Shown here piece after piece: positions 4,337 through 5,773 of a DNA stretch of 10,606 bases (positions are counted from its first letter, which is position 1; each line of letters opens with the position of its first letter). The notes beneath the pieces are model-generated. The model had not been told where the DNA came from and did no database searches. It saw nothing but the letters and a program-made list of their open reading frames with translations. Position numbers and translations under genes: made by a program. Source of the DNA: a virus. Location: the UHGV virus genome UHGV-0360087. One strand, written 5' to 3'.

Positions 4337-4576
4337 TCACGCCGCCCGCATCGAGCGCAGCTTCTTAATGTGCTCGCTCTGTTCCAGTTCAGCCCGGATC
4401 TGCCGGGCCTCATCATGGTCGAGCGGTTCAAAGTCGTTGTTAAACCTGTACATGCTGGCCGTATTTATCCGTCCTTGGCGCCAGTAGCACACCGTTCTGG
4501 CGTCACAGCTGTGAATAATGACTGGCCATCCGTGACCGTCTGGGAAAATCTGGCCTCGCTGAATGAGTTGAAACAC
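4337..4576 (-). CDS. Hypothetical protein, 79 aa
   Basis: GTG start at 4576 with AGAGG about 6 nt upstream, beginning 3 nt after the stop of the zinc-finger gene. I recognise no motif. Confidence 0.5.
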   Translation of the reverse strand: MFQLIQRGQIFPDGHGWPVIIHSCDARTVCYWRQGRINTASMYRFNNDFEPLDHDEARQIRAELEQSEHIKKLRSMRAA

Positions 4577-4579
4577 GGC

Positions 4580-4798
4580 TCACCTCTGATGCTTCCCGCG
4601 CTTTTCCGCTTCGTCCTGGCAGTCAGCGCAGCGCTGACAACCTGCCACCAGTTCCCGGCGCCGTGCCGGAATTGCCTCTCCACAATCAATGCAGTGCGTA
4701 GCCGATACCGCGTTATGGTTGATGCGATGGGCCTGTATCGCCTTATCGCGGAGAAGCTCTTCTAATTCGCTGGCCTGATCGATAATTTCTGCGCTCAT
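4580..4798 (-). CDS. TraR/DksA-family C4 zinc-finger protein, 72 aa
   Basis: CIDCGEAIPARRRELVAGCQRCADC gives the CxxC-N17-CxxC zinc-finger signature. Its ATG overlaps the upstream stop as ATGA. Confidence 0.75.
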   Translation of the reverse strand: MSAEIIDQASELEELLRDKAIQAHRINHNAVSATHCIDCGEAIPARRRELVAGCQRCADCQDEAEKRGKHQR

Positions 4799-5322
4799 GC
4801 TGCCTCCATGGTTCCGATCCGCTTTAACTCACTCAGCGAAACGGACGTGATGATGCGTCTTGGCGTGATGAATGGCCGCCAGATGAACAAAATTGAGTCC
4901 TTTGGGTTGCTCTGCCGTTTACCTGTAGCCGACGCCGGCACAAACTGAATGCGTCCGCCGGTTATCAGGCGAATCTCATCAGCGCTCTGCATCGCGGAGA
5001 GAAACCATCCGGTAGAGATATCTGCGGGAAGCAGAATGACTACCGTCTGGGACTGCGCTTTACATTGCTCGGTGGCTTTCTCCACCCACGGCCCGATATC
5101 GGAATAGGGTGGGTTGCACCAGATCGCGCCGTACGACGACCATTCACGACTCAGCGAGTTATCCAGCTCAGTGAGATAGTGAGCGCATAGCGCATTACGT
5201 TCAGAGGCAGCAGCATCCAGCCAGAAGCCAAACTCAAGATCGAGCGCGTTAAATATTTCAATCGGCGTTTGCCAGTAGTCTCTTTCATTTTTCGGTGTGT
5301 TCGATCCGCCGTAGTCAGTCAC
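4795..5322 (-). CDS. Phage DNA N6-adenine methyltransferase (Dam-like), 175 aa
   Basis: Motif IV NPPY is present (AIWCNPPYS). GTG start at 5322 has GGAGA 7 nt upstream and overlaps the upstream stop as GTGA. Confidence 0.8.
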   Translation of the reverse strand: MTDYGGSNTPKNERDYWQTPIEIFNALDLEFGFWLDAAASERNALCAHYLTELDNSLSREWSSYGAIWCNPPYSDIGPWVEKATEQCKAQSQTVVILLPADISTGWFLSAMQSADEIRLITGGRIQFVPASATGKRQSNPKDSILFIWRPFITPRRIITSVSLSELKRIGTMEAA

Positions 5323-5747
5323 AATGCCGTCTCCATTTCGTCGATATAAAGGCCAGCAGCAATCAGCCGGCGGCGCCGGGCTGCTTTCTCAATACATTCC
5401 CGGCGATTACCCTCTGCCGCCAGAGCCATAGAACGCCGAGTGAACAGGCGTGTTTTACCCTGAGGGGTAATAACCTTTGGCTTTGTGATCAGGTCAAAGG
5501 TGCGGTCACAGATGCCGTCCTCGTTGAGCCAGGTTTCCGATGTAACCAGCTGTGCAATGCGCCCTTCGCCTCTGGTCAGGCCGTTCGCGACACGGTTAAA
5601 TTCGATGAGCGTTACGCCGAATTTCTCTGCGATTTCGCTGCCAGTTACCGGGCGACCGCGCGTCTGAATCATCCAGATAACGCGCTCGCGGAGTCCGGAG
5701 AATTTCCCGGCCTTACCTGGTCTGCGGTAAAATGGTGTGCGTTTCAT
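5319..5747 (-). CDS. Hypothetical protein, possibly a winged-helix DNA-binding protein, 142 aa
   Basis: ATG at 5747 has GGGAG 8 nt upstream (GTG at 5753 is the alternative). The stretch RPVTGSEIAEKFGVTLIEF is HTH-like and the protein is basic. No family assignment is possible without a search. Confidence 0.5.
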   Translation of the reverse strand: MKRTPFYRRPGKAGKFSGLRERVIWMIQTRGRPVTGSEIAEKFGVTLIEFNRVANGLTRGEGRIAQLVTSETWLNEDGICDRTFDLITKPKVITPQGKTRLFTRRSMALAAEGNRRECIEKAARRRRLIAAGLYIDEMETAL

Positions 5748-5773
5748 TTCCACTGCTCCCAGAGTATTTCGGC

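What the first reader, a model, noticed from the sequence alone, without database searches (positions are those of the whole stretch)
4337..5753. Translationally coupled accessory operon (unknown 79 aa, TraR/DksA zinc finger, Dam-like MTase, unknown 142 aa) as an anti-defence or host-takeover candidate
Four genes with 3-4 nt gaps or overlaps (ATGA, GTGA) lie between xis and the recombination genes, the position of the non-essential lambda ea region. A Dam-like methyltransferase (NPPY) suggests protection from restriction. The 79-aa and 142-aa proteins have no motif I can place. The 142-aa protein has an HTH-like segment and could be a regulator or a specificity partner for the methyltransferase.
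Basis: partly seen in the sequence, partly recalled or inferred. Interest (0 to 1): 0.5.

Follow-up and report, generated by a model that had tools for sequence, protein, structure and literature searches.

The report
Lambdoid prophage exo-xis accessory genes
The four tightly packed genes are real, but they are the ordinary accessory ("exo-xis") stretch at the far end of the early-left operon of a lambda-like prophage, made of interchangeable modules from known families rather than a dedicated new anti-defence operon.

Summary
Four minus-strand genes lie at 5747-4337: a 142-aa protein, a 175-aa PF05869 Dam-type methyltransferase, a 72-aa TraR and a 79-aa protein. Their junctions are GTGA, ATGA and a 3-nt gap, each start has a Shine-Dalgarno sequence, and substitutions show the third-codon-position excess expected of coding DNA. 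They are not an operon of their own. They are the last part of an eight-gene leftward array (kil, gam, recT, gp157, these four, xis) that starts at operator-like repeats next to cI in a phi80/HK639-type prophage. This is the lambda "exo-xis region".

- **TraR:** 54% identical to lambda Orf73, which binds RNA polymerase and raises burst size.
- **79-aa protein:** a DUF4222 member and a distant relative of RgdR, a prophage regulator of host genes.
- **142-aa protein:** a winged-helix protein of a small uncharacterised family (phrog_1680).
- **Methyltransferase:** 142-aa proteins that are 95-99% identical precede at least eight different DNA-modification gene families. The nearest relatives of this Dam follow other genes. 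It is therefore swappable cargo, and the 142-aa protein is not its specificity partner.

"Anti-defence or host takeover" is a fair label for two of the genes. The unit and the proposed partnership are not supported. Interest is low.

The parts
5319..5747 (-). 142-aa basic winged-helix protein ("p142"). Member of phrog_1680, named "regulator" by NCBI, with no Pfam family. Conserved backbone gene at the start of the exo-xis region.
4795..5322 (-). 175-aa orphan N6-adenine DNA methyltransferase of the phage "Dam" family. Variable cargo gene.
   Evidence: PF05869 E 7e-68 over positions 1-167 of 169. TIGR01712 190 bits (cut-off 97). DAAA at residues 36-39 and NPPY at 70-73. PADLOC: orphan MTase. 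Homologues in 1956 phage records, including T1-like and Stx phages. GTGA overlap with p142 and ATGA overlap with TraR.
4580..4798 (-). 72-aa TraR/DksA-family zinc-finger protein, orthologue-like to lambda Orf73. Predicted to bind the secondary channel of RNA polymerase.
   Evidence: TIGR02419 63.4 bits (cut-off 59.7) and PF01258 E 2e-9. Matches F TraR chains from RNAP complexes 5W1S/6N57, E 1e-5. 54% identity to lambda Orf73, E 1e-25. Sequence features: CxxC-17-CxxC (C36, C39, C57, C60), E4-x-x-D7-x-A9, and R46-R48.
4337..4576 (-). 79-aa DUF4222 protein, a distant relative of the prophage regulator RgdR.
   Evidence: PF13973 59.6 bits (cut-off 27) and phrog_285 E 2e-32. 38% identity over 45 aa to RgdR/ECs_1581, E 2e-7, with RGQ 7-9 aligned to RGD 20-22. 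Found in 139 phage records, usually next to xis/int. The AF2 model is poor (pLDDT 52).
4098..4283 (-). xis-like small HTH protein (AlpA/HTH_17 type), the last gene of the leftward array. Its 3' end converges on and overlaps int.
   Evidence: HTH_17 E 5e-4 (below cut-off); phrog_33798 and phrog_66, "excisionase and transcriptional regulator". The SD sequence GAGGA lies before ATG 4283, and there is none before GTG 4340.
5774..7460 (-). Recombination and anti-nuclease module directly upstream in the same array: gam (7164-7460), recT (6253-7167) and gp157/Mu-Gam-like (5774-6256).
   Evidence: PF06064 E 4e-60, PF03837 E 1e-29, PF05565 E 2e-41. The stop and start codons overlap by 4 nt.
8023..8067 (.). 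Operator-like repeats left of cI (candidate oL/pL), from which the leftward array is inferred to be transcribed.
   Evidence: 19-nt arm 8023-8041 is 95% complementary to 9084-9102 on the other side of cI. 17-mers at 8027-8043 and 8051-8067. cI lies at 8339-9025 and the cro-like gene at 9133-9363. That these repeats act as the promoter region is an inference.
2924..4114 (+). Prophage tyrosine integrase, convergent with xis as in phi80.
   Evidence: PF00589 and Arm-DNA-bind_3. Phi80 has the same int(+)/xis(-) arrangement.

Best explanation
The block is the distal "exo-xis" accessory segment of the early-left (pL) operon of a phi80/HK639-type lambdoid prophage of Enterobacteriaceae.

**Expression (inferred).** After induction or infection, leftward transcription from the operator region beside cI runs through kil, gam, recT, gp157, then p142, the methyltransferase, TraR, the DUF4222 gene and xis. 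The overlapping or near-abutting stop and start codons let ribosomes pass from one gene to the next.

**The four products most likely act independently.**
1. TraR inserts into the RNA polymerase secondary channel. Like lambda Orf73, it shuts down rRNA and ribosomal-protein promoters without ppGpp and diverts resources to the phage. This is shown for homologues and inferred here.
2. The orphan PF05869 methyltransferase methylates replicating phage DNA, so progeny escape methylation-sensitive restriction in the next host. This is inferred. From memory of the T1, HP1 and VT2 Dam enzymes, its site is probably GATC. This was not verified here.
3. The DUF4222 protein is a small RgdR-like modulator of host gene expression. 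This is a weak inference from one characterised homologue.
4. p142 is a dimeric winged-helix DNA-binding protein that belongs to the conserved backbone of this phage group. Its target is unknown.

**The methyltransferase slot.** The position just 3' of p142 is a recombination hot spot. Different phages carry different DNA-modification genes there.
For: **Genome context.**
- The cI, cro-like and CII-like genes, kil, gam, recT, gp157, xis and int are all identified.
- All leftward genes lie on one strand with gaps of at most 76 nt.
- Promoter-like hits are at chance level (6 against 5.4 expected), and no strong terminator lies inside the block.
- Operator-like repeats flank cI.
- Phi80 and HK639 have the same order: recombination genes, p142 homologue, methyltransferase, xis, int.
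- Lambda's own exo-xis region carries orf60a (DUF1317) and Orf73. Orf73 is 54% identical to the window's TraR.

**TraR.** Function of homologues is in PMC9239242. The ExxDxA motif, the RR pair and the C4 motif are present.

**DUF4222.** RgdR is described in PMC3378721 and PMC10877973. The homology is shown.

**Modularity.**
- In 103 loci, the first gene of at least 100 aa downstream of p142 is a DNA-modification gene in about 90. These are MT-A70 64, PF05869 8, C5::Dam fusion 6, DndB 3, D12 Dam 2, N6_N4 2, DpdA-like 2, SAM-MTase-like 2 and phrog_757 1.
- p142 copies 95-99% identical precede eight of these families.
- The nearest relatives of this Dam follow other genes.
- TraR is present in 72 of 82 loci and DUF4222 in 33 of 82.

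**Prophage methyltransferases in lysogens.** Orphan prophage MTases were transcriptionally silent in an E. coli ST131 lysogen (PMC4659465). That fits expression only after induction.

**Coding status.** All four genes show the substitution pattern of coding sequence under purifying selection.
Against: - No transcript data exist. The single-operon reading rests on gene packing and on weak consensus scans, which miss many real promoters and terminators.
- No N-like antiterminator or nut/put RNA was found between 7780 and 8020, so how transcription reaches this far is not shown.
- The methyltransferase target site and any effect on restriction are untested. GATC is neither avoided nor enriched in the window (36 observed, 41.6 expected). 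In a Dam+ host a GATC enzyme could look redundant.
- The first Asp of the TraR DxxDxA motif is Glu here. The paper suggests that incomplete conservation of this motif could contribute to the lower in vitro activity of two homologues.
- The DUF4222 protein has RGQ where RgdR has its functionally important RGD.
- The very frequent pairing of p142 with a DNA-modification gene, kept in Stx phages where the upstream neighbour is different, could mean more than a shared recombination joint.
Confidence: 0.78

Rival explanations
1. The four genes form one dedicated, co-acting anti-defence or host-takeover operon, in which the 142-aa HTH protein regulates the methyltransferase or gives it sequence specificity.
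For: Tight translational coupling of p142 and the MTase through a GTGA overlap. p142 is followed by a DNA methyltransferase in most loci, including Stx phages at 55% identity.
Against: p142 proteins 95-99% identical to each other, with an identical helix-turn-helix segment, precede MT-A70, PF05869, D12, N6_N4, C5::Dam, phrog_757, DndB and DpdA-like genes. One DNA-reading head cannot plausibly serve all of these. Loci L099-L102 and distant homologues (L104, L105, L108) have no adjacent methyltransferase. The nearest Dam relatives lack p142. TraR and DUF4222 occur with or without the others. No operon boundaries were found.
Confidence: 0.07
2. p142 is functionally tied to the DNA-modification slot in a general way. 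It could be a controller-like regulator that times expression of whatever modification gene follows. Or it could protect the host or phage from the side effects of promiscuous modification, for example from modification-dependent restriction.
For: About 90 of 103 loci, and 16 of 20 species-representative loci, have a DNA-modification gene as the first sizeable gene after p142. The stop codon of p142 overlaps the next start by 4 nt whatever that gene is. The pairing persists in Stx phages where the upstream gene is an anti-repressor instead of exo. In Klebsiella phage GZ7 an unrelated HTH_23 protein occupies the same position before the Dam.
Against: The sample is dominated by close relatives and is not independent. 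Four species-level loci and three distant homologues lack the pairing. Only 14 of 78 close Dam relatives have any HTH protein upstream. p142 also always follows the recombination genes, so simple position in a mosaic backbone explains the data. No operator-like site was found near the junction.
Confidence: 0.12
3. The block is a set of lysogenic-conversion genes (morons) expressed from the resident prophage to alter host physiology, as RgdR does for type III secretion and motility in EHEC.
For: RgdR acts from a cryptic prophage in growing cells (PMC3378721). TraR-family proteins and orphan methyltransferases can change host gene expression.
Against: The genes sit inside the repressor-controlled leftward array with no promoter signal of their own above chance. 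Lambda exo-xis genes are among the earliest lytic transcripts (PMC8614690). Prophage orphan MTases were silent in a lysogen (PMC4659465). Continuous TraR/Orf73 expression slows host growth (PMC9239242).
Confidence: 0.05

Closest known systems
Bacteriophage lambda exo-xis region (orf60a, orf63, orf61, orf73, ea22, ea8.5, orf55)
   Same: Same place in the genome, between the Red-type recombination genes and xis. Same strand as pL, with small tightly packed non-essential genes. It shares the Orf73/TraR gene (54% identity), and sibling loci share orf60a/DUF1317.
   Different: The window has no orf60a, orf61, orf63 or ea22 homologues. It carries p142, a methyltransferase and a DUF4222 gene instead. 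The recombination module is RecT+Gp157, not Bet+Exo.
Left arms of phages phi80 (PHI80_36 plus the damL pseudogene) and HK639 (HK639_37 "regulator" plus a DNA methyltransferase)
   Same: p142 homologues of 80-84% identity lie immediately after the recombination genes and before a methyltransferase. Int is convergent with xis in phi80. HK639 has the same Gp157+RecT module at about 80% DNA identity.
   Different: The methyltransferases belong to other families or are longer. The phi80 one is a frameshifted pseudogene. Neither record annotates a TraR gene, and a tblastn with the window's TraR found none in either locus. HK639 gave a DUF4222 match (43%) and phi80 none.
F-plasmid TraR / lambda Orf73 (RNA polymerase secondary-channel regulators)
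   Same: Same size, same C4 zinc ribbon, an N-terminal acidic helix motif, the conserved RR pair and a C-terminal helix. The score is above the TIGR02419 cut-off.
   Different: The motif is ExxDxA, not DxxDxA. No activity data exist for this protein.
RgdR (ECs1581) of EHEC cryptic prophage CP-933C, the only characterised DUF4222 protein
   Same: DUF4222 domain above the Pfam threshold in both. Both are small, basic and prophage-encoded. The R-G-x motif aligns.
   Different: Only 38% identity over 45 residues. 79 aa against 99 aa. RGQ instead of the RGD that matters for RgdR activity. RgdR lies in a P4-like element next to a primase gene, not beside xis of a lambdoid phage.
Phage orphan Dam-type methyltransferases of PF05869 (T1-like phages such as Tls, Stx phages, Klebsiella prophages)
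   Same: Full-length match to PF05869/TIGR01712 with NPPY. 35-60% identity to T1-like and Stx-phage enzymes and 86% to Klebsiella prophage enzymes.
   Different: Specificity was not determined here. The neighbours of the closest relatives differ.
Controller (C) proteins of restriction-modification systems
   Same: A small HTH protein encoded just upstream of, and overlapping, a restriction-modification gene.
   Different: p142 is a winged helix plus a long helix, not an Xre-type HTH. It shows no sequence match. It sits before unrelated orphan modification genes with no nuclease partner, and no C-box-like repeat was seen.

Membership tests
Lambdoid exo-xis accessory region | Lies between the recombination genes (exo/bet/gam equivalents) and xis-int, on the pL strand | tested here: met
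   gam, recT and gp157 lie upstream, xis and int downstream, all leftward genes on the minus strand. Same order in phi80, HK639 and lambda.
Lambdoid exo-xis accessory region | Carries genes conserved in the lambda/Stx-phage region (orf60a, orf63, orf61, orf73, ea22) | tested here: inconclusive
   Only orf73 has a homologue in the window (54% identity). DUF1317/orf60a is present in 13 or more sibling loci but not in the window. No DUF1382 or Ea22 domain was found.
Lambdoid exo-xis accessory region | Transcribed early from pL and dispensable for plaque formation | not testable with these tools
   Inferred only from gene packing, chance-level promoter hits and operator-like repeats beside cI.
TraR family (TIGR02419 / PF01258) | Profile score above the curated cut-offs | tested here: met
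   TIGR02419 63.4 bits against 59.7. PF01258 37.7 bits against 24.9.
TraR family (TIGR02419 / PF01258) | C4 zinc finger, conserved R48/R49-equivalent pair, C-terminal helix | tested here: met
   C36, C39, C57, C60. RRR at 46-48 aligns with TraR RR. Features as listed in PMC9239242.
TraR family (TIGR02419 / PF01258) | N-terminal DxxDxA motif that reaches the RNAP active site | tested here: inconclusive
   The sequence is E4-I-I-D7-Q-A9, a conservative D-to-E change at the first position. [quoted passage not shown]
TraR family (TIGR02419 / PF01258) | Binds RNA polymerase and regulates rRNA promoters without ppGpp | not testable with these tools
   Shown for F TraR, lambda Orf73 and four other homologues (PMC9239242), not for this protein.
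Phage N6-adenine methyltransferase (PF05869 / TIGR01712) | Full-length profile match above cut-off with the catalytic NPPY motif | tested here: met
   228 bits against 28.1, positions 1-167 of 169. TIGR01712 190 bits against 97. NPPY at 70-73 and DAAA at 36-39.
Phage N6-adenine methyltransferase (PF05869 / TIGR01712) | Methylates adenine in a defined site (GATC for the characterised T1, HP1 and VT2 enzymes, recalled from memory) and protects from restriction | not testable with these tools
   No paper confirming the specificity was retrievable. GATC frequency in the window is unremarkable.
DUF4222 / RgdR family | DUF4222 domain above the Pfam gathering score | tested here: met
   59.6 bits against 27. 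RgdR itself scores 82 bits. Pairwise E 2e-7.
DUF4222 / RgdR family | RGD tripeptide reported as important for RgdR activity | tested here: not met
   The aligned residues are R7-G8-Q9, and Q9 is invariant in 20 close homologues. The protein is therefore a DUF4222 member but not an RgdR orthologue.
   p142 copies of 95-99% identity precede eight different DNA-modification families, or none. Close Dam relatives lack p142.
Winged-helix DNA-binding regulators | Three-helix bundle with a beta-hairpin wing | tested here: met
Winged-helix DNA-binding regulators | Membership of a named HTH sequence family (MarR, HTH_11 and so on) | tested here: not met
   Best Pfam hit is HTH_11 at 17.8 bits against a cut-off of 25. 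No NCBIfam hit. PDB profile hits are E 7e-4 or weaker.

The most novel reading that the evidence does not exclude
The phrog_1680 winged-helix protein (p142) may be more than a neighbour. It could be a dedicated gatekeeper of a DNA-modification cargo slot in phi80-, HK639- and Stx-type lambdoid phages. In that reading it is a DNA-binding factor translationally coupled to whatever methyltransferase, DndB or DpdA-type gene is inserted after it. It would set the timing or level of that gene, or shield the phage and host from modification-dependent restriction. That would define a new type of controller for orphan phage modification enzymes.
Probability: 0.1. Interest if true: 0.5.

Novelty: new member of a known kind. 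Interest (0 to 1): 0.2.

Why it matters
The main value is in removing a false lead. The block is a standard mosaic piece of lambdoid phage genomes, so it does not need a new category.

Three modest points are useful to annotators.
1. The 79-aa "unknown" belongs to the RgdR/DUF4222 family of prophage regulators.
2. The TraR gene is the counterpart of lambda Orf73, whose mechanism is known.
3. The site just after the phrog_1680 gene is a recurrent insertion point for at least eight kinds of DNA-modification genes in Enterobacteriaceae prophages. That makes it a convenient place to look for anti-restriction cargo.

The phrog_1680 family itself remains uncharacterised. It is conserved in 136 deposited phage genomes, including the Stx2a phage of the 2011 O104:H4 outbreak, and would be a reasonable small target for experiment.

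Tried and rejected
1. **p142 as a partner of the MT-A70 enzyme "M.EcoGIX".** I recalled M.EcoGIX as phage-borne, but the literature shows it is encoded on plasmid pESBL (PMC7736820). Lead dropped.
2. **Structure of the DUF4222 protein.** The AF2 model was too poor (pLDDT 52) for a fold search. The alignment of hits was shallow (70-96% identity).
4. **Sequence searches of the PDB.** Nothing for the Dam or the DUF4222 protein. Only marginal HTH hits for p142.
5. **PADLOC.** No defence-system match except "orphan MTase".
6. **Rfam.** Only the tRNA. No put or nut-like RNA.
7. **Literature for the target site of PF05869 enzymes.** Not retrievable in the held library. GATC specificity is therefore stated from memory only.
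8. **"An HTH protein always precedes this Dam".** This was suggested by Klebsiella phage GZ7. It was rejected because only 14 of 78 close Dam loci have an HTH gene upstream.
9. **Antisense ORFs.** The long plus-strand ORFs 4295-4765 and 5295-5846 were not taken as genes. Substitutions follow the minus-strand codon phase.
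Full report
**1. What is in the sequence**

The finding's coordinates hold four minus-strand ORFs.
- **p142:** 142 aa, 5747-5319. The ORF list gives GTG 5753 and 144 aa, but ATG 5747 has GGGAG 7 nt upstream and all homologues begin MKR.
- **Methyltransferase:** 175 aa, 5322-4795.
- **TraR:** 72 aa, 4798-4580.
- **79-aa protein:** 4576-4337.

There is a GTGA overlap, then an ATGA overlap, then a 3-nt gap, and each start has a Shine-Dalgarno-like sequence in front. Comparison with sibling loci shows a 2- to 5-fold excess of third-codon-position differences in all four genes. 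These are therefore real genes under purifying selection, and the long antisense ORFs are not.

The xis-like gene most likely starts at ATG 4283, which has a good SD sequence and is where family matches begin. It probably does not start at GTG 4340. So the last junction is a 53-nt gap and not a GTGA overlap.

**2. Families**

- **Methyltransferase.** It is a full-length member of PF05869/TIGR01712, "phage N-6-adenine-methyltransferase", with NPPY at residues 70-73. PADLOC knows it only as an orphan methyltransferase. Homologues occur in 1956 deposited phage genomes, including T1-like and Stx phages.
- **TraR.** The 72-aa protein passes the TIGR02419 cut-off. It matches F-plasmid TraR from the RNA polymerase complexes 5W1S and 6N57. 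It is 54% identical (E 1e-25) to lambda Orf73, which I read out of the unannotated gap in the lambda exo-xis region. Gopalkrishnan et al. (PMC9239242) showed that TraR, Orf73 and four other homologues bind RNA polymerase and inhibit rRNA and r-protein promoters without ppGpp. They also showed that Orf73 slows host growth and increases burst size. The features they list are present here: the C4 finger, the RR pair and the C-terminal helix. The one exception is that DxxDxA reads ExxDxA.
- **79-aa "unknown".** It is a DUF4222 protein (PF13973, 59.6 bits against 27; phrog_285). The only characterised DUF4222 protein is RgdR (ECs1581) of the EHEC cryptic prophage CP-933C. RgdR activates LEE1/ler, represses motility and binds DNA non-specifically (PMC3378721, PMC10877973). 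I retrieved ECs_1581 from the Sakai genome. It aligns with the window protein at 38% identity over 45 residues (E 2e-7). RgdR's RGD motif aligns with an invariant RGQ here. The protein is therefore a family member, not an orthologue.

**3. Context**

The window is the left arm of a lambdoid prophage.
- A LexA-type cI lies at 8339-9025, with a cro-like gene and a CII-like gene to its right.
- Operator-like repeats lie on both sides of cI: 8023-8067 and 9084-9102.
- To the left, all on the minus strand, run kil, gam, recT, gp157, the four genes, and xis. The integrase is convergent with xis, as in phi80.
- The four-gene block is packed no more tightly than gam/recT/gp157, whose genes overlap by 4 nt.
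- Promoter-like matches across the region are at chance level (6 against 5.4), and no convincing terminator separates the block.

The block is therefore best read as the distal part of the pL operon, not as an operon of its own. An IMG/VR contig is 99.99% identical to window 2945-10606. Phi80 and HK639 are the nearest named phages.

**4. Is p142 a partner of the methyltransferase?**

I collected 103 loci that encode p142 homologues: 80 from IMG/VR, 21 species-representative genomes, phi80 and HK639.
- **Upstream.** In the first 82 loci (80 IMG/VR, phi80, HK639) the gene before p142 is a YqaJ/lambda-type exonuclease in 78 and gp157 in 4.
- **Downstream.** The first gene of at least 100 aa is a DNA-modification gene in about 90 of 103. 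These are MT-A70 (64), PF05869 Dam (8), a C5::Dam fusion (6), DndB (3), D12 Dam (2), N6_N4 (2), a queuine-transglycosylase/DpdA-like gene (2), a SAM-methyltransferase-like gene (2) and a phrog_757 methyltransferase (1). Families were assigned.
- **Junction.** The stop codon of p142 overlaps the next start by 4 nt whatever that next gene is.

At first sight this favours a functional pairing. It also holds in Stx phages such as P13374, where the upstream gene is an anti-repressor. Three results argue against a specific partnership.
1. p142 proteins that are 95-99% identical to one another, with an identical residue 19-56 helix-turn-helix segment, precede eight different modification families.
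2. Four species-level loci (L099-L102) and three distant homologues (L104, L105, L108) have no adjacent modification gene.
3. The 80 closest relatives of the window's Dam (85-87% identity) are preceded by a DUF1317/orf60a-like gene (33), an exonuclease (31) or an unrelated HTH_23 protein (13). p142 appears only in the window's own phage.

The simplest reading is that p142 is a backbone gene and the position after it is a hot spot where modification genes are exchanged. TraR (72 of 82 loci) and DUF4222 (33 of 82) are further backbone-like elements nearer xis.

**5. Most likely mechanism**

- **Shown for homologues, inferred here.** TraR reprograms host transcription through the RNA polymerase secondary channel.
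- **Inferred from family and from the cargo pattern.** The orphan methyltransferase modifies phage DNA during lytic growth and protects progeny from restriction. Prophage orphan methyltransferases were silent in an E. coli ST131 lysogen (PMC4659465), which fits expression only after induction. The target site was not determined. GATC is my recollection for the T1, HP1 and VT2 enzymes, and I could not verify it in the held literature.
- **Weak inference.** The DUF4222 protein modulates host gene expression as RgdR does.
- **Open.** p142 binds DNA, and its target is unknown.

**6. Comparison with what is known, and novelty**

This is the lambda "exo-xis region" in a phi80/HK639-type phage. That region has been studied for its effects on the lysis-lysogeny decision and on host physiology (PMC3824215, PMC8614690). 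All four genes fall into existing families, and two of those families have characterised members. Nothing in the arrangement is unexpected for a lambdoid mosaic genome. I therefore rate it as a new member of a known kind, with low interest.

The one point not already in the papers I could read is the recurrent modification-gene slot after the phrog_1680 gene. The residual possibility that p142 controls that slot is recorded as the novel case, at about 10% probability.

**7. Limits**

- There are no expression, methylation or binding data.
- The locus sets are enriched for close relatives, so the counts are not independent events.
- The promoter and terminator scans are crude.
- The p142 structure is a medium-confidence model, and the DUF4222 model is unusable.

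Noticed in passing
window 1356-4114: A tRNA-Arg(CCT) gene (2675-2749, minus strand) sits between two tyrosine integrases. A P4-like int (1356-2549, minus) lies on the tRNA's 3' side, and the lambdoid prophage int (2924-4114, plus) on its 5' side. Two mobile elements therefore abut the same tRNA. The att sites were not mapped.
   Followed up: partly
window 45-665 (+): A tail-fibre-like ORF (phrog_1141, E 5e-71) lies left of the P4-like integrase. It may belong to that element or to a third phage remnant.
   Followed up: no
window 8023-8067 and 9070-9102: Operator-like repeats flank cI. The 19-nt arms 8023-8041 and 9084-9102 are 95% complementary. There are 17-mers at 8027-8043 and 8051-8067, and a 9-bp-stem palindrome at 9070-9094. 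These are candidate oL/oR sites.
   Followed up: partly
window 7461-8338: About 880 bp between gam and cI holds only a Kil homologue (phrog_294, about 7537-7776, minus strand). There is a hairpin followed by a T-run at 8200-8217 after cI. No N-like or cIII-like ORF was seen, and Rfam found no put or nut RNA, so the means of antitermination is unclear.
   Followed up: partly
window 10410-10526: An iteron-like array of four to five copies of TTACCYGAATCAGGTAA spaced 23-24 nt apart. It is probably the phage replication origin.
   Followed up: no
window 5774-7460: The recombination module is Gam + RecT + Gp157 (Mu-Gam-like), with no YqaJ/lambda-Exo nuclease. Of 82 sibling loci, 78 carry the exonuclease in the position of Gp157. 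HK639 shares the Gp157 version.
   Followed up: partly
L088 6575-10279, L092 6575-7327, L086/L089-L091/L094 from 6575: In sibling prophages the slot after the p142 gene carries stacked DNA-modification genes. Examples are DndB + N6_N4 + C5 methylases, a DpdA/queuine-transglycosylase-like gene, and 620-815-aa fusions of a C5-cytosine methylase with a PF05869 Dam domain.
   Followed up: partly
L110 (Klebsiella phage GZ7) 3439-3744: The closest deposited relative of the window's Dam (86% identity) is preceded, with the same 4-nt overlap, by an unrelated 101-aa HTH_23 protein. The last residues of that protein (TKRGAQ) are shared with the DUF1317 gene that precedes the Dam in other loci, which suggests a common recombination joint.
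   Followed up: partly
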